Below, one piece after another: positions 15,845 to 38,760 of a stretch of DNA of 64,000 nt. Position 1 is the stretch's first letter. Each line of letters starts with the position of its first letter. The position numbers and the translations under genes are program-made. This DNA is from the human T2T-CHM13v2.0 reference genome, Homo sapiens, in the NCBI RefSeq assembly GCF_009914755.1, contig NC_060936.1, one strand, 5' to 3'. The notes below the pieces were generated by a model. That model was not told the origin of the DNA, made no database searches, and was given only the letters and a program-made list of their open reading frames with translations.

Positions 15845-16050
15845 CAGGGTTTCTCGACTGCGTGCCGTTGACATTTGGGGCTGGGCTGTTCTTTGTTGTG
15901 GTGGGGCTCTCCTGGGCACTGTGGGAGGTTCAGCAGCATCCCTGGCCTTGACCTATTAGATGCCAGTAGCAACCTCCCTTGCAACAAGCAGAAATATCTC
16001 CAGACATGGCCCAGTGTTTCCTGGGGGCAAATCCCAGCTGAGAATCCCTG
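15845..16050 (-). mobile_element. MER20
   Basis: cagggtttctc...cagcagcatccctggcc...tagatgccagtagca...tctccagaca. Confidence 0.8.
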
Positions 16051-16348
16051 CTTCGGAGTTACAGGCAAGTGAGGCCTCCTCATGCTCTGCATGCTCCCTG
16101 TGATGCTCACGGTCATCCTCCCAGGCGAGCTGGCGGCATCTAGGATCCCCGTTTGACAGACAGGAGCTGGAGGCTCTAAGGGCTTGCCACGAGGTGGCAG
16201 GGAGCCTCGGGTCTCAGGTCAGGCCCACACGCTGCTCTCTGGACTCAGCACCTGCTGATCTTTCCACACCTTCCATCACTCAGTCAGCACTTAGAGCGGT
16301 CATGACCCTGGGACTCAGAGAGATCACCAGCATGTCTTCCTTTTCCAG

Positions 16349-16860: not shown

Positions 16861-17091
16861 CAGAGGTTCCTAATGGGCGGGGCAGGGGCGGGGGAGGTTG
16901 TGTTCTAGGGGACTCTTGGCAATGCCTGGAGACATTTTTGGTCATCACAGCCCCGGGGAGCATGCAGTGTAGTACTGGCATCTAGTGGGTAGAAGCCAGG
17001 GATGCTGTGAAGCATCCTACAGTGCACAGCCAGCTGCTGCCACAAAGGATTAGAGCCCAGATGTCAATAGCGCCAAGGGTGAGAAACTCTG
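16861..17091 (+). mobile_element. MER20
   Basis: ggcaatgcctggagacattttt...actggcatctagtgggtagaagccagggatgctg...gagaaactctg. Confidence 0.8.
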
Positions 17092-17192
17092 CTTTTGATG
17101 AACTAGATTTGGACACATCTGGCTCATTCACCAACTTGTTGGCTATTGAAGATGGCATCCATGTTCTTGAGTGTCTCAGGGTTGCAGAATGA

Positions 17193-17726
<534 letters not shown>

Positions 17727-18930: not shown

Positions 18931-19345
<415 letters not shown>

Positions 19346-29695: not shown

Positions 29696-31190
29696 TAGTT
29701 AAAAGGCCTGATCACACTGCAAGATTGTAAAATAATTTCCCCATGATTTCTTTTGGTACTCTTATGTTTTAATTTTTTATATTTAAATCTTTTATCTATT
29801 GAGGATTTTTTTCCTGGGGTTCTGTGTGAGTTTGGATCCAATTTGAGTTTTTCCAGATGAGTAAAATCTGGCTTTTCTCAGGTCATTTGGATGTTAAGCG
29901 CAATGAGCCGGCACTTACATCTTGACAATTTTATAATCTTTTAAGTCCTTAAAAAGCGCTTCCTTCTTATCATACTCAATCCTCTTTGTAGAAATCATTA
30001 AATGTTAAGGCAGGAAGATGAAGAGTCATGAAGATTAGAAGTAGATGTTTCTCTAACTATAAAACTATAAAAGCCTCCCTTTGTTGCTGGCTCTTGAGTT
30101 TCACTTTTCTTCCTTTCATTCATTCAGTAGTCAGTGGGTGTCTGTCCCCCACCCCACCCCTGCCCTGAGCAGGCACTGGGGCCCATCAGCAGTGAGGCAG
30201 GCAGGGTCTTCACTGCGTGGCGCTGACACTCTGTTTTCCTATAGGAATCCCATGTGCATGGGGAAATTATGTAGGATTAGGTTAGGAAGGAAAGGTCCTT
30301 GCTGCTCTGACAGTGGATGTTGGGACCTGACCTAGTCATGGTCATGGAGGGCGGAGGGGGCACCTTCTCTGAGATTGCAAGGAGCTCGGCTGGAGAAAAA
30401 GCAGAGACAGCTGGTGTGTCAGGGGTAGAGTACTGGGAGGTGGGGAGTGGGGTTTATAAGGATTATTTTCCTCTAGGGAGGGTAGCATATCATTCTCCCT
30501 TTCTCATTCCTGAGTTTGTTTTGTGATAGAAGAAAGGAATCAAATTAAACAGACATCTCCCTTTCTCTTGACTTGCACCCTCCACATTTCACACACCTTG
30601 GTCATCCGGCATTGTGGAAAGTGGTATGTTCTGGATAAGTGAGATCCCAGAGCGTGGCCTGCAACCCAACAGCAGAAAACGTCACTTTGGTAGACTCAGA
30701 GGATTTGGGAACTGGAAGGTTCCAGTTCTGCGTCTCTACTTCACAGATGGGGAAACTGACGCCCTGGCTGGTTCCTAACTTGCCCAAGGGCTCAGGACCC
30801 CGCCGCAGGCCTGGGCTCCTTCTGTCTTGAATCTGAAAACATCTCCCCCATTCTTTCCCCACCTGCTTGTTCACAGAGCGGTGGCCGGGGCCTGGTTTCC
30901 ATCCACCCTGAAGGGACCTTTTAAAGACACTTGACAGCCCCGCCGCTTTCCTAAGCAGCCAACACCAGCGTGATCGAGCCTTTTCCCGGGGACTCAGGGC
31001 CTTTCTTTCATCACTGGGCTTTGTGCTGAAGTGTGGGCGCCCTCCCTCCTGGCTGTTGCCCTGGCTTGTCCGTACACTATGGGGCCTTCTCTCCTCTGCT
31101 GTCTGTGTGGGAGTGTGTGAGGGTTCCGGGGTCAGGAGGGGTGGGGGATTTGCTCACTGCAGAAAGCCTCCAGGTTGCTGTCTGCTCAGG

Positions 31191-31400
31191 CTGTCTCCTC
31201 CCTGTCTCTCTGTCTCCTCCCTGTCTCCCTGTCTCCTCCCTGTCTCTCTGTCTCCTCCCTGTCTCTCTGTCTCCTCCCTGTCTCCCTGTCTCCTCCCTGT
31301 CTCTCTGTCTCCTCCCTGTCTCTCTGTCCCCTCCCTGTCTCCTCCCTGTCTTCCTGTCTCCTCCCTGTCTCTCTGTCTCCTCCCTGTCTCCCTGTCTCTG
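31191..31400. repeat. CT-rich minisatellite of CTGTCTCCTCC / CTGTCTC(T/C) units
   Basis: Directly visible. Confidence 0.92.
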
Positions 31401-34050: not shown

Positions 34051-34310
34051 GACCAGGCGTGGTAGCTCATGCCTGTAATCCAGCACTTTGGAAGGCCCAG
34101 ATGGGAGGATCACTTGAGCCCAGGAGTTTGAAACCAGCTTGGGCAACATAGTGAGACCCTGTCTCTACAAAAAAAAAGTTTTTTAATTAGCCGAGCATGG
34201 TGGCACACACCTGTACTGCCAGCTACTTGGGAGGCTGCAGTGAGCTGTGATTGTACCACTGCACTCCAGCCTAGGTGACAGAGTGAGACCCTGTCTCAAA
34301 AAAAAAAAAA
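34051..34310 (+). mobile_element. AluJ (internally deleted)
   Basis: Alu motifs, A tail. Confidence 0.85.
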
Positions 34311-34350
34311 TGACGTAAAGATGTTTAAAGTTGTTTCTCTAGGGTCAAAG

Positions 34351-37300
34351 CAGAGTTTCTCAGCTGCAGCTGAATGTGGCCTGGTGGTGGTGGGGGGTCT
34401 GTCCTGGGGGATCTGTCCTGGGGGGTCTGTCCTGGGGGGGGTCTGTCCTGGGGGGTCTGTCCTGGGGGGGGTCTGTCCTGGGGGGTCTGTCCTGGGTGGG
34501 TCTGTCCTGGGGGAGTCTGTCCTGGGGGGGTCTGTCCTGGGGGGTCTGTCCCGGGGGGGGTCTGTCCTGGGGGGGTCTGTCCCGGGGGGGGTCTTTCCCG
34601 GGGGGGATCTGTCCTGGGGGAGTCTGTCCTAGGGGGGTCTGTCCTGGGGGGTCTGTCCTGGGGGGACTGTCCTGGGGGGTCTGTCCCGGGGGGACTGTCC
34701 TGGGGGGTCTGTCCCAGGGGATCTGTCCTGGGGGGGGTCTGTCCCGGGGGGTCTGTCCTGGGGGGACTGTCCTGGGGGGATCTGTCCTGGGGGGGTCTGT
34801 CCTGGGGGCATCCGTCCTGGGGGGGTCTGTCCTGGGGGGGTCTGTCCTGGGGGGATCTGTCCTGGGGGGTTTGTCCTGGGGGAGTCTGTCCTGGGGGTGG
34901 TCTGTCCTGGAGGGGTCTGTCCTAGGGGAGTCTGTCCTGGGGGGGGTCTGTCCTGGGGGGGTCTGTCCCGGGGGGGTCTGTCCCGGGGGGACTGTCCTGG
35001 GGGGGTCTGTCCTGGGGGCGTCTGTCCTGGGGGTGGTCTGTCCTGGGGGGGGTCTGTCCTGGGGGGGTCTGTCCCAGGGGATCTGTCCTTGGGGGACTGT
35101 CCTGGGGGGGTCTGTCCTGGGGGCATCTGTCCTGGGGGGGGTCTGTCCTGGGGGGGTCTGTCCCAGGGGGTCTGTCCTGGGGGGATCTGTCCTGGGGAGG
35201 TCTGTCCTGGGGGGTCTGTCCTGGAGGTGTCTGTCCTTGGGGGGGGTCTGTCCTGGGGGAGTCTGTCCTGGGGGGGTCTGTCCTAGGGGGGTCTGTCCTG
35301 GGGGGTTTGTCCTGGGGGGGTTTGTCCTGGGGGGGTCTGTCCTGGGGGGGGGGTCTGTCCTGGGGGAGTCTGTCCTGGGGGGGTCTGTCCTGGGGGGTTT
35401 GTCCTGGGGGGGTCTGTCCTGGGGGCGTCTGTCCTGGGGGGGGTCTGTCCTGGGGGGGTCTGTCCTGGGGGGGTCTGTCCTGGGGGGGAGGTCTGTCCTG
35501 GGGGAGTCTGTCCTGGGGGGGTCTGTCCTGGGGGGTCTGTCCTGGGGGGGGTCTGTCCTGGGGGCGTCTGTCCTGGGAGGGGTCTGTCCTGGGGGGGTCT
35601 GTCCTGGGGGGGGGTCTGTCCTGGGGGGTCTGTCCTGGGGGGGGGTCTGTCCTGGGGGGTCTGTCCTGGGGGAGGGTCTGTCCTGGGGGGTCTGTCCTGG
35701 GGGGGGTCTGTCCTGGGGGAGTCTGTCCTGGGGGGGTCTGTCCTGGGGGGTTTGTCCTGGGGGGGGTCTGTCCTGGGGGCGTCTGTCCTGGGAGGGGTCT
35801 GTCCTGGGGGGGTCTGTCCTGGGGGGGGGTCTGTCCTGGGGGGGTCTGTCCTGGGGGGTCTGTCCTGGGGGGTCTGTCCTGGGAGGGGTCTGTCCTGGGG
35901 GTTCTGTCCTGGGGGGGTCTGTCCTGGGGGGGTCTGTCCTGGGGGGTTTGTCCTGGGAGGGGTCTGTCCTGGGGGGGTCTGTCCTGGGGGGGGTCTGTCC
36001 TGGGGGGGGGGGTCTGTCCTGGGGGGGGGGTCTGTCCTGGGGGGTCTGTCCTGGGGGGGGTCTGTCCTGGGGGGTCTGTCCTGGGGGGGGTCTGTCCTGG
36101 GGGGTCTGTCCTGGGGGGGGGTCTGTCCTGGGGGGTCTGTCCTGGGGGGGGGTCTGTCCTGGGGGGTCTGTCCTGGGGGGGGGTCTGTCCTGGGGGGCCT
36201 GTCCTGGGGGGGGGTCTGTCCTGGGGGGGGTCTGTCCTGGGGGGTCTGTCCTGGGGGGGGGTCTGTCCTGGGGGGTCTGTCCTGGGGGGGGGTCTGTCCT
36301 GGGGGGTCTGTCCTGGGGGGGGGTCTGTCCTGGGGGGCCTGTCCTGGGGGGGGGTCTGTCCTGGGGGAGGGTCTGTCCTGGGGGGTCTGTCCTGGGGGGG
36401 GTCTGTCCTGGGGGAGTCTGTCCTGGGGGGGTCTGTCCTGGGGGGTTTGTCCTGGGGGGGGTCTGTCCTGGGGGCGTCTGTCCTGGGAGGGGTCTGTCCT
36501 GGGGGGGTCTGTCCTGGGGGGGGGTCTGTCCTGGGGGGGTCTGTCCTGGGGGGTCTGTCCTGGGGGGTCTGTCCTGGGAGGGGTCTGTCCTGGGGGTTCT
36601 GTCCTGGGGGGGTCTGTCCTGGGGGGGTCTGTCCTGGGGGGTTTGTCCTGGGGGGGGGTCTGTCCTGGGGGGGGTCTGTCCTGGGGGGTTTGTCCTGGGA
36701 GGGGTCTGTCCTGGGGGGGTCTGTCCTGGGGGGGGTCTGTCCTGGGGGGGGGGTCTGTCCTGGGGGGTCTGTCCTGGGGGGGGTCTGTCCTGGGGGGTCT
36801 GTCCTGGGGGGGGGTCTGTCCTGGGGGGTCTGTCCTGGGGGGGGTCTGTCCTGGGGGGTCTGTCCTGGGGGGGGTCTGTCCTGGGGGGGGGTCTGTCCTG
36901 GGGGGTCTGTCCTGGGGGGGGTCTGTCCTGGGGGGTCTGTCCTGGGGGGGGGTCTGTCCTGGGGGGTCTGTGCTGGGGGGTCTGTCCTGGGCGGGGGGGT
37001 CTGTCCTGGGGGGGTCTGTCCTGGGGGGTCTGTCCTGGGGGGTCTGTCCTGGGGGGGGGTCTGTCCTGGGGGGTCTGTCCTGGGGGGGGGTCTGTCCTGG
37101 GGGGTCTGTCCTGGGGGCATCTGTCCTGGGCGGTGTCTGTCCTTGGGGGGGGTCTGTCCCGGGGGGACTGTCCCGGGGGGTCTGTCCCGGGGGGTCTGTC
37201 CTGGGGGGGGTCTGTCCTGGGGGGTCTGTCCTGGGGGATCTGTCCCGGGGGGTCTGTCCTGGGGGGGGGTCTGTCCTGGGGGGGTCTGTCCTGGGGGGTC

Positions 37301-38099
37301 TGTCCTGGGGGGGTCTGTCCTGGGGGGGTCTGTCCTGGGGGGGGGTCTGTCCTGGGGGGTCTGTCCTGGGGGGGGGTCTGTCCTGGGGGGGTCTGTCCCG
37401 GGGGGGTCTGTCCTGGGGGGGGTCTGTCCTGGGGGGTCTGTCCTGGGGGGGGTCTGTCCTGGGGGGGTCTGTCCTGGGGGGTCTGTCCTGGGTGGGTCTG
37501 TCCTGGGTGGGTCTGTCCTGGGGGGGGGTCTGTCCTGGGGGGGGTCTGTCCTGGGGGGGGGTCTGTCCTGGGGGGGGGTCTGTCCTGGGGGGGGTCTGTC
37601 CTGGGGGGGGTCTGTCCTGGGGGGTCTGTCCTGGGGGGGGTCTGTCCTGGGTGGGTCTGTCCTGGGTGGGTCTGTCCTGGGGGAGTCTGTCCTGGGGCGG
37701 TCTGTCCTGGGGGGGGTCTGTCCCGGGGGGGTCTGTCCTGGGGGGGGTCTGTCCTGGGGGGTCTGTCCTGGGTGGGTCTGTCCTGGGGGAGTCTGTCCTG
37801 GGGGGGTCTGTCCTGGGGGGTCTGTCCCGGGGGGGTCTGTCCTGGGGGGGGTCTGTCCCGGGGGGGGTCTTTCCCGCAGGGGGTCTGTCCTGGGGGGTCT
37901 GTCCTGGGGGGTCTGTCCTGGGGGGGGGTCTGTCCTGGGGGGGTCTGTCCTGGGCACTATAGGATGTTTAGCAGCATCTTCAGCCTCACCCCACTGGATG
38001 CCAGCAGCACCCTCCCTCCAAGCTGTGACATCCAGAAATGTCTCCAGACAGTACCAAACGTCCCCTGGGGGACAAAACCTACCGCAGTTGAGAGCAGCG
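34351..38099 (-). mobile_element. MER20 (hAT-Charlie) split by the minisatellite (pieces 34351..34391 and 37955..38099)
   Basis: Left cagagtttctc; right gcactataggatgtttagcagcatc...gatgccagcagcacc...aatgtctccagaca...tcccctggggg...gttgaga follows the MER20 reverse-strand consensus and the copy at 15845..16050. Confidence 0.85.
34392..37954 (+). repeat. G-rich minisatellite (G5-11 TCTGTCCT)n, ~3.56 kb, roughly 230 units
   Basis: Directly visible; unit mostly 14-17 bp; variants TTTGTCCT, TCTGTCCC, GGAG, GGCG, GGTGG. Confidence 0.99.
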
Positions 38100-38542
38100 G
38101 GGCCAAAGTCACATGAAGATCACAAAATACAAAGAGAATAAGGTTAATTTGATCATTTTGAGTCATATTGTGACCTTGCGCTATAGCTCGGAATTGTATT
38201 ATTCAGAAAGCTTGGAACCAATAGAAATACTGTTACTGTCTATGGTATATTCTTCTGAGTTTTTGACTTAGAACCACAGTGTCATCTTACGGAGACCTCA
38301 GTACATGAAAGTAAAACCATTTGATAACTTGGGTGCTGTGTCTTCTAATGGGACATGGAGTTTTTGCAGCAAACAGTCGAAGAAGAAACTAAGAAGCCAC
38401 GTGTCTCAACATAGCATATAGAGGCTCTGAAAAGCACAGACACCATTAGAGCAGTTTAGACATGTGGCCTGGTTTGAGGCCATGGGATCGCGGCCCCACC
38501 ACGGTCCTTTTCCCCATCTTTTTGCAAATTGTCTTCACTTAG

Positions 38543-38760
38543 GTGGCCAGGCTGGAGCGGAATTTTTACCTCACTAAACGGGAACTGGAAAGGATCCAGA
38601 ATGAGTTGGCAGCAATTCAGAAAGAGCTGGAAACATTGGGTGCCAAATATGAGGCCGCCATACTGGAAAAGCAGAAGCTGCAGGAAGAAGCCGAGATCAT
38701 GGAGAGGCGGCTGATTGCCGCAGACAAACTCATCTCGGGTCTGGGGTCAGAAAACATCAG
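38543..38760 (+). CDS. DNAH10: DNAH10 exon, stalk CC2 (VARLERN...[14 protein letters not shown])
   Basis: cacttag|GTG, AG|gttagc; A.KLISGL..E..R motif. Confidence 0.93.

What the first reader, a model, noticed from the sequence alone, without database searches (positions are those of the whole stretch)
34351..38099. A 3.5-kb G-tract minisatellite grown from a ~14-bp seed inside a MER20 transposon
Seen: the array is bracketed by the two halves of one reverse-strand MER20 (left cagagtttctc...ggtggt, right gcactataggatgtttagcagcatc...). Recalled consensus: MER20 reads ...GTGGGGGGCTGTCCTGTGCATTGTAGGATG... at exactly this junction, essentially one repeat unit. The MER20 at 15845..16050 keeps the unexpanded homolog (gtggtggggctctcctgggcactgtggg) as an in-window control. 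Inference: a fossil DNA transposon seeded a roughly 230-copy, probably lineage-specific and length-polymorphic VNTR in the intron between the DNAH10 MTBD and CC2 exons.
Basis: partly seen in the sequence, partly recalled or inferred. Interest (0 to 1): 0.8.

Follow-up and report, generated by a model that had tools for sequence, protein, structure and literature searches.

The report
Transposon-seeded G-rich minisatellite in DNAH10 intron
A 3.6-kb run of 234 copies of a 15-base G-rich unit sits inside an old MER20-type transposon fossil in a DNAH10 intron and grew from a piece of that transposon; it is a clean example of an already known way that minisatellites arise.

Summary
Window 34392-37954 holds 234 head-to-tail units of about 15 bp (GGGGGGTCTGTCCTG). 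It is by far the largest tandem array in the window.

The array interrupts one transposon fossil, 34351-38100. This fossil has terminal inverted repeats and a 7-of-8 target-site duplication. With the array cut down to one unit, the flanks align as a single collinear hit to positions 2-215 of a 222-position family profile. I built that profile from 26 other copies in the same genome. The joined flanks score 161.6 bits, and intact copies score 158-162. The repeat unit matches profile positions 60-73 at 12 of 13 bases.

The array is much more uniform than its host: 2.1% core divergence against about 16%. It contains exact 287-bp and 140-bp internal duplications and higher-order periods of 2, 9 and 45 units. 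This points to recent growth by multi-unit exchange.

No other locus in this genome carries this unit as an array. Lineage specificity and length polymorphism could not be tested. G-quadruplex and R-loop potential is predicted only, and no canonical motif is present. This is an ordinary kind of feature and a tidy example of it.

The parts
34343..34350 (.). Left copy of the candidate 8-bp target-site duplication (GGTCAAAG)
   Evidence: Read. It matches 38101-38108 at 7 of 8 positions once the element's ends are set from the family alignment.
34351..34391 (+). Left arm of the MER20-type element: the terminal inverted repeat CAGAGTTTCTCAGC..., followed by a shortened, G-enriched stretch
   Evidence: 34347-34362 is identical at 16 of 16 bases to the terminus of copy C. 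On its own the arm is weak against the family profile (E 2.3-4). It is collinear once joined to the right arm. About 13 profile positions are deleted.
34392..37954 (+). Minisatellite of 234 units, consensus GGGGGGTCTGTCCTG. Composition is G 52%, A 1.3%. The G-rich strand is the DNAH10 sense strand.
34392..34677 (+). 5' terminal block of about 19 variant-rich units, repeated in the same unit order at the 3' end of the array
   Evidence: alignment. Of 196 windows tested, the 3' end window scored best (483; next 466; median 410.5). The rare unit with TCTTTCCC occurs only in the first 20 and last 20 units.
35668..35954 (+). 287-bp block (19 units) that is exactly duplicated at 36363-36649
36083..36362 (+). 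Two exact tandem copies of a 140-bp, 9-unit block (36083-36222 and 36223-36362)
36363..36649 (+). Second copy of the exact 287-bp block
37665..37954 (+). 3' terminal block, matching the 5' terminal block
37955..38100 (+). Right arm of the MER20-type element, ending in the inverted terminal repeat
   Evidence: nhmmer with a profile built only from copies B and C gives E 1.6e-26. The 26-copy profile gives E 4.3e-47 over positions 51-215. Substitution identity to the family consensus is 117 of 139.
38101..38108 (.). Right copy of the candidate target-site duplication (GGCCAAAG)
15845..16057 (+). In-window unexpanded copy B of the same family, used as a control
   Evidence: 162.1 bits.
16884..17094 (-).
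   Evidence: 157.9 bits.
38543..38760 (+). Downstream DNAH10 exon, in the second coiled coil of the stalk
   Evidence: Pfam PF12777, E 5e-9, profile positions 234-294 of 344. Exon bounds come from the hub's annotation.

Best explanation
This is a single-locus, transposon-derived G-rich minisatellite.

Origin. An old non-autonomous MER20-type (hAT/MER1-class) element inserted into what is now a DNAH10 intron. Much later, a roughly 14-bp internal segment of it (a G-run plus CTGTCCTG, family profile positions 60-73) was duplicated. In this copy the segment is bounded by the short direct repeat TGGG...TGGG. The first duplication most likely arose by slipped mispairing between those repeats; this step is inferred.

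Growth. The array then grew to 234 units by unequal exchange or gene conversion of multi-unit blocks, with slippage in the G-runs. The block structure is shown; the process behind it is inferred.

Consequences. The G-rich strand is the non-template strand of DNAH10. The array is therefore predicted to form long-loop G-quadruplexes and R-loops when transcribed, which would feed its own instability. This is predicted, not shown. I take it to be an essentially neutral by-product rather than a selected element.
For: 1. Collinearity. With one unit kept, the flanks give a single nhmmer hit to profile positions 2-215 of 222, at 161.6 bits. Intact in-window copies score 162.1 and 157.9. The profile was built from 24 copies elsewhere in the genome plus the two in-window copies, and excludes this locus.

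2. Unit origin. The last unit on the left side and the first unit on the right side map to the same family columns. The unit matches consensus positions 60-73 at 12 of 13 bases, and the right arm resumes at position 76.

3. Element hallmarks. The family shows terminal inverted repeats. This copy has a 7-of-8 duplication of 8 bp at its ends. The first look found 1158 candidates genome-wide, and all 40 that were scored had E <= 1.6e-18.

4. Array younger than host. 197 of 234 units have the exact core TCTGTCCT. 40 of 1872 core sites (2.1%) differ from the array consensus. The host's arms are 80% (16 of 20) and 84% (117 of 139) identical to the family consensus. The 26 copies have a median of 86%.

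5. Block growth. There is an exact 287-bp duplication 695 bp apart and an exact 140-bp tandem duplication. Unit-type autocorrelation peaks at offsets of 45, 9 and 2 units (0.229, 0.179, 0.177), against 0.094 +/- 0.02 in 300 shuffles. The two ends of the array share unit order. Variant units are dense in the 5' third (10-14 of 18) and sparse in the centre (1-7 of 18).

6. Strand and composition. GC skew is +0.38 to +0.49 across the array, and G is 52%. DNAH10 is on the + strand (hub annotation).

7. Precedent. 23% of human minisatellites and satellites are TE-derived (PMC3389668, abstract and passages). A 28-kb array at 2q37.1 derives from MER20 positions 128-219 (PMC2588610, passages).
Against: - The left arm alone is not significant against the family profile (E 2.3-4). 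Its assignment rests on the 16-of-16 terminal match, its position, its strand and collinearity.
- The direct repeat TGGG is not sufficient for expansion. 4 of 26 other copies also carry G at that site and none of them is expanded. Those rows were chosen for being near full length, so this set could not have contained an expanded copy.
- Canonical G-quadruplex motifs (loops of 1-7 nt) number 0 in the array, because the spacer is 8 nt. With loops up to 8 nt there are 55.
- In the ViennaRNA G-quadruplex fold, only the central 120 nt clearly beat composition-matched shuffles (-109.2 against -63.0 +/- 10.8). A mid-array segment (-65.5) did not, and the 5' segment (-78.5) was about 1.4 sd better.
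- The similarity between the two ends is the best of 196 windows, but by a modest margin (483 against 466).
- No data on other haplotypes or other species were available, so neutrality, age and polymorphism are inferences.
Confidence: 0.8

Rival explanations
1. The array is old. It expanded before the primate or eutherian radiations and is merely kept uniform by ongoing turnover, so it is not lineage-specific.
For: Concerted evolution can keep old arrays uniform. The variant-rich 5' third (10-14 variant units of 18) and the diverged terminal blocks show that part of the array has had time to accumulate substitutions. No cross-species data were available.
Against: Exact 287-bp and 140-bp duplicates span 19 and 9 mutable G-runs without a single change. 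Core divergence is 2.1%. These argue that most of the present length is recent. They do not date the first expansion.
Confidence: 0.15
2. The array is a selected functional element. Examples would be a transcription-pausing or R-loop element, a sink for G-run-binding splicing factors, or an enhancer that modulates DNAH10 or neighbouring genes such as CCDC92.
For: There are 226 G-runs of 4 or more on the sense strand of a transcribed intron. Intronic G-rich VNTRs with effects on the host gene are documented, for example TERT VNTR6-1 (PMC11830802; abstract in the search listing only).
Against: The hub's RefSeq functional-element list has nothing between 34351 and 38100. There is no canonical G4 motif. 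The block structure is what neutral unequal exchange produces. No paper in the searched library pairs DNAH10 with VNTR (0 papers) or minisatellite (0), and the 8 papers that pair it with 'tandem repeat' look unrelated by title and abstract; I opened only one (PMC4419785), which concerns a DNAH10OS insertion.
Confidence: 0.07
3. The array, or its fine structure (G-run lengths, block duplicates), is partly an assembly or homopolymer-calling artefact.
For: Most differences between units are G-run lengths of 6-11. This is the error mode of long-read consensus calling, which I state from established knowledge.
Against: Nineteen consecutive units, G-run lengths included, are reproduced exactly at a second place. 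This is unlikely if run lengths were noisy. Both flanks are unique sequence and collinear with one element.
Confidence: 0.03
4. The array did not come from the transposon. An unrelated minisatellite arose or was inserted there by chance.
For: Similar-looking G-rich minisatellites exist without MER20-like flanks, for example an 18-bp unit array on contig C9.
Against: Both array boundaries are in register with the family alignment, with no foreign sequence between. The unit matches family positions 60-73 at 12 of 13 bases.
Confidence: 0.02

Closest known systems
TE-derived minisatellites in the human genome (Ahmed and Liang 2012, PMC3389668; abstract and passages read)
   Same: A tandem array whose unit is a piece of the transposable element that surrounds it, expanded by local duplication.
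   Different: That survey used units longer than 20 bp and found that younger, more active TEs contribute most. Here the unit is 14-15 bp and the host is an old DNA-transposon fossil. Its supplementary list could not be opened, so I cannot say whether this locus is listed.
The 2q37.1 MER20-derived array (Warburton et al. 2008, PMC2588610; passages read)
   Same: A MER20 copy that seeded a large tandem array, with a full-length element at the array's edge.
   Different: That array is 28 kb of 89-bp units from MER20 positions 128-219. This one is 3.6 kb of 15-bp units from about positions 60-73, and both element halves are kept. My pattern search for the 2q37 array found nothing on C2, so I did not compare the two directly.
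G-rich hypervariable minisatellites such as the insulin-linked polymorphic region and CEB1 (ILPR abstracts in the listing; CEB1 and G4-dependent instability in PMC4426816 passages)
   Same: A short G-rich unit of 14-15 bp, up to hundreds of copies, and G-quadruplex-linked instability as the proposed driver.
   Different: Those have short loops and experimentally shown G4 formation and polymorphism. Here the spacer is 8 nt, there are 0 canonical motifs, and neither structure nor polymorphism was tested. ILPR unit length and copy ranges are recalled, not taken from a call.
Immunoglobulin class-switch regions (recalled general knowledge; no call)
   Same: A kilobase-scale intronic tandem repeat that is G-rich on the non-template strand, the architecture associated with co-transcriptional R-loops.
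   Different: There is no evidence of programmed use, and the unit and locus are different. This is an analogy of architecture only.

Membership tests
MER20 (non-autonomous MER1/hAT-class DNA transposon) | The sequence aligns collinearly over the full length of the family model once the array is removed | tested here: met
   One hit to profile positions 2-215 of 222, at 161.6 bits. The profile was built from 26 other copies in the same genome.
MER20 (non-autonomous MER1/hAT-class DNA transposon) | Element length of about 219 bp | tested here: met
   A full-length MER20 is given as positions 1-219 in PMC2588610. My family profile has 222 positions. This copy without the array is about 201 bp, with about 13 profile positions deleted in the left arm.
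MER20 (non-autonomous MER1/hAT-class DNA transposon) | Terminal inverted repeats and an 8-bp target-site duplication (the 8-bp size for hAT elements is recalled) | tested here: met
   The family's ends read CAGGGTTTCTCAAC... on the left and ...GTTGAGAACCACTG on the right. This copy's flanks are GGTCAAAG and GGCCAAAG, a 7-of-8 match.
MER20 (non-autonomous MER1/hAT-class DNA transposon) | It is the family that the literature calls MER20 | tested here: met
   This link is indirect. The profile finds a 201-bp copy (E 1.4e-46) 8.4-8.6 kb upstream of PRL exon 2. Published work places a 198-bp MER20 there, about 6 kb upstream of the pituitary promoter (PMC1891148, PMC2731163; passages). A second copy lies 2 kb upstream of exon 2, so the match is by position and size only.
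MER20 (non-autonomous MER1/hAT-class DNA transposon) | Match to the curated Dfam/Repbase MER20 consensus, and orientation relative to it | not testable with these tools
No Dfam or Repbase library was available.
Minisatellite / VNTR | Head-to-tail repeats with a unit of 10-100 bp | tested here: met
   234 units of 14-19 bp.
Minisatellite / VNTR | Copy number varies among individuals | not testable with these tools
   Only one haploid assembly was reachable. No paper in the searched library pairs DNAH10 with VNTR or minisatellite.
G-quadruplex-forming minisatellite | Four G-tracts of 3 or more separated by loops of 1-7 nt | tested here: not met
   There are 0 canonical motifs in the array, 55 with loops up to 8 nt and 62 with loops up to 12 nt.
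G-quadruplex-forming minisatellite | Predicted or measured G4 stability beyond what composition alone gives | tested here: inconclusive
   The central 120 nt fold to -109.2, against -63.0 +/- 10.8 for shuffles. A mid-array segment folds to -65.5. No experiment was possible.
R-loop-prone G-rich repeat (switch-region-like) | Dense G-clusters on the non-template strand of a transcribed unit | tested here: met
   G is 52%, GC skew is +0.38 to +0.49, and there are 226 G-runs of 4 or more on the + strand, which is the DNAH10 sense strand (hub annotation). Actual R-loop formation was not tested.

The most novel reading that the evidence does not exclude
The array is a recently expanded (ape- or human-lineage), highly length-polymorphic VNTR. 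Its length would tune DNAH10 or neighbouring CCDC92 expression through R-loops, long-loop G-quadruplexes or sequestration of G-run-binding splicing factors in the intron. It would then account for part of the genetic association signals reported at this 12q24.31 locus. That such signals exist is recalled, not taken from a call.
Probability: 0.04. Interest if true: 0.7.

Novelty: new member of a known kind. Interest (0 to 1): 0.27.

Why it matters
This is a clean case of minisatellite birth. Both halves of the parent transposon, its target-site duplication, the single-copy progenitor segment in sister copies, and the internal block structure are all still readable. Seed, register and mode of growth can therefore be stated base by base.

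The practical value is modest. The locus is a 3.6-kb G-rich block on the sense strand of a large gene expressed in cilia and sperm. Short reads cannot size it, so any effect on DNAH10 or its neighbours would have been missed by SNP-based studies. Transposon-derived minisatellites, including one from MER20, are already described, so the kind of feature is not new.

Tried and rejected
I could not check the TE-derived tandem-repeat list of PMC3389668 or any VNTR catalogue for this locus.
- Literature searches. DNAH10+VNTR gave 0 papers and DNAH10+minisatellite gave 0. DNAH10+'tandem repeat' gave 8; I opened one (PMC4419785), which was unrelated. CCDC92+VNTR gave 1, not opened. A 13-nt unit string gave 4 papers, none on this locus by title.
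- The PRDM9 13-mer motif (recalled) occurs 0 times in the array on either strand, so there is no support for a hotspot-motif explanation.
- Same array elsewhere. A three-unit pattern with this array's core gave 147 matches. 128 are in this array. Of the other 19, I saw 18, all in arrays on C13, C14 and C18 with different 17-18-bp units. One match was not listed.
- Consensus-type core pattern. It gave 17 matches, in one array on C8 and one on C9. Neither had significant MER20-like flanks (best E 0.39 and 5.6). The C18 locus was not fetched. I therefore found no evidence that this MER20 segment is a recurrent seed.
- An attempt to find the published 2q37 MER20 array by pattern, to tie the family name, found only an unrelated C9 repeat. 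I used the PRL promoter MER20 instead.
- The long open frames across the array (up to 1257 codons) simply reflect the 1.3% A content and are not a gene signal.
Full report
**1. The observation**

Tandem Repeats Finder reports one array at 34392-37954. It has period 15 (consensus GGGGGGTCTGTCCTG), 234.1 copies, 86% matches, 9% indels and score 4846. A period of 31 is also reported. It is by far the strongest tandem repeat in the 64-kb window; the next scores 400.

Anchoring on the TGTCC core gives exactly 234 units of 45 distinct types. Most variation is in G-run length. 173 of 233 units have a pure G lead: G6 in 66 units, G7 in 43, G8 in 35, G9 in 25, G10 in 3 and G11 in 1. The 8-nt core TCTGTCCT is exact in 197 of 234 units. 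Composition is G 52.1%, T 26.2%, C 20.4%, A 1.3%, with GC skew of +0.38 to +0.49.

**2. The flanks belong to one transposon fossil**

The right flank aligns to two other places in the window. These are 15900-16034 on the plus strand (E 1.4e-15) and 17029-16892 on the minus strand (E 2.6e-12). The left flank's first 16 bases are identical to the terminus of the second copy. The window therefore holds two unexpanded sister copies, B at 15845-16057 and C at 16884-17094.

A profile built from B and C alone hits the right flank at E 1.6e-26 (profile positions 52-212). It hits the left flank only weakly (positions 1-22, E 4).

The assembly that holds the window could be searched. The 145-bp right arm gave 1158 first-look candidates, and all 40 that were scored had E <= 1.6e-18. 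This is a high-copy interspersed family. From 29 fetched loci, 24 near-full-length copies were extracted. Together with B and C they gave a 222-position profile that does not include this locus.

With the array reduced to one unit inside a script, the flanks give one collinear hit to positions 2-215 at 161.6 bits. This equals the scores of intact copies B (162.1) and C (157.9).

The family alignment shows inverted termini, and this copy is flanked by GGTCAAAG and GGCCAAAG, a 7-of-8 match. The element spans 34351-38100.

**3. The unit is the element's own sequence**

In the family alignment, the last unit on the left and the first unit on the right occupy the same columns. The unit matches consensus positions 60-73 at 12 of 13 bases, and the right arm resumes at position 76.

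In this copy the progenitor segment is bounded by TGGG on both sides, 14 nt apart. The array ends with a partial unit (GGG) before CACTAT. This fits initiation by slipped mispairing between short direct repeats, one of the two initiation models summarised in PMC3389668 (passages). This step is an inference. 4 of 26 sister copies also have G at the position that completes the second TGGG and are not expanded. Those rows were selected for being near full length, so expanded copies would have been excluded from that set.

**4. The family name**

No Dfam or Repbase library was available. PMC2588610 gives a full-length MER20 as positions 1-219, close to my 222-position profile. PMC1891148 and PMC2731163 place a 198-bp MER20 at -387/-189 (or -395/-148) of the decidual PRL promoter, about 6 kb upstream of the pituitary promoter (passages).

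I located PRL on contig C6 with Pfam PF00103 and fetched 18 kb upstream. The profile finds a 201-bp copy (E 1.4e-46) 8.4-8.6 kb upstream of exon 2. It also finds a second copy 2 kb upstream of exon 2. The first fits the published element by size and position. This is an indirect link to the name.

**5. The array is young relative to its host and grew in blocks**

The host's arms are 80% (16 of 20) and 84% (117 of 139) identical to the family consensus. The 26 copies have a median of 86%, ranging from 79% to 91%. Within the array, only 40 of 1872 core positions (2.1%) differ from the array consensus.

A 287-bp block of 19 units is repeated exactly 695 bp away (35668-35954 and 36363-36649). A 140-bp block of 9 units is exactly duplicated in tandem (36083-36362). 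Unit-type autocorrelation peaks at offsets of 45, 9 and 2 units (0.229, 0.179, 0.177). In 300 shuffles it is 0.094 +/- 0.02. Adjacent units are identical less often than chance (0.060).

Variant units are dense in the 5' third (10-14 of 18 per bin), rare in the centre (1-7 of 18) and intermediate at the 3' end (9 of 18).

The first ~285 bp and the last ~290 bp share the same unit order, including a unit type found nowhere else in the array. The score margin over other windows is modest (483 against 466; median 410.5; 196 windows).

Together these features indicate growth by unequal exchange or conversion of multi-unit blocks, most recently in the centre. The process itself is inferred from the pattern.

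**6. Single locus**

A three-unit pattern with this array's core has 147 matches in the genome. 128 are in this array. 18 of the other 19 were seen and lie in three arrays with different 17-18-bp units. One match was not listed.

A pattern with the family-consensus core found arrays on C8 and C9 only. Neither has significant MER20-like flanks within 1.5 kb (best E 0.39 and 5.6). I found no second case of this MER20 segment expanding.

**7. Structure and possible effects**

The G-rich strand is the DNAH10 sense strand (hub annotation). It has 226 G-runs of 4 or more, but 0 canonical quadruplex motifs, because the spacer is 8 nt. There are 55 motifs with loops up to 8 nt.

ViennaRNA with G-quadruplex terms folds the central 120 nt to -109.2 kcal/mol as RNA, against -58.2 without quadruplexes and -63.0 +/- 10.8 for shuffles. 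A mid-array segment reaches only -65.5 and the 5' segment -78.5. Quadruplex potential is therefore largely compositional and unproven.

G-rich human minisatellites are known to be destabilised through G4 formation (PMC4426816, passages citing the CEB1 work). No RefSeq functional element is listed in this interval (hub annotation). The recalled PRDM9 motif is absent from the array.

**8. Gene context**

The downstream exon matches the dynein stalk family PF12777 at profile positions 234-294 of 344 (E 5e-9). The 45-aa upstream exon gave no hit. The array lies in an intron within the stalk-coding region. The finer 'MTBD/CC2' wording is only half checked.

**9. What is not shown**

Lineage specificity, length polymorphism, actual G4 or R-loop formation, and any effect on expression are all untested. 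No paper in the searched library pairs DNAH10 with VNTR or minisatellite. Supplementary tables, where VNTR catalogues would list such a locus, could not be opened.

**10. Verdict**

It belongs to a known kind: transposon-derived minisatellites (PMC3389668), with a MER20 precedent (PMC2588610). It is a new, well-preserved member of that kind and of modest interest.

Noticed in passing
An Alu-like dimer repeat sits next to it at 17211-17545.
   Followed up: partly
G000:C9:149690395-149691815 (loci L050, L053): About 77 copies of an 18-bp unit (C-strand CCCCCCAGACCAGGACAG). On the G strand the unit reads like the MER20 consensus segment plus GTCTG. No MER20-like flanks were detected (E 5.6). Its origin is unexplained.
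   Followed up: partly
window 31191-31398: A 19-bp unit repeated 11.4 times (CTGTCTCCTCCCTGTCTCT), overlapping the RefSeq-annotated enhancer at 30968-31262 (hub annotation).
   Followed up: no
window 19228-19321: A perfect compound dinucleotide repeat, (CA)22 followed by (AG)25.
   Followed up: no
L056 (G000:C6:22169042-22169268 and 22175494-22175694): Two MER20-type copies lie upstream of PRL. The distal one fits the published decidual-promoter MER20. The proximal one, about 2 kb upstream of exon 2, is not mentioned in the passages I read.
   Followed up: partly
window 34343-38141 (+ strand frames): All three plus-strand frames are open across much of the array, up to 1257 codons. This is because A is only 1.3% of bases. 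It is a composition artefact, not a coding signal.
   Followed up: yes
window 34051-34317: An Alu with its poly-A tail ends about 30 bp upstream of the element's left target-site duplication (masked stretch in the hub annotation).
   Followed up: no
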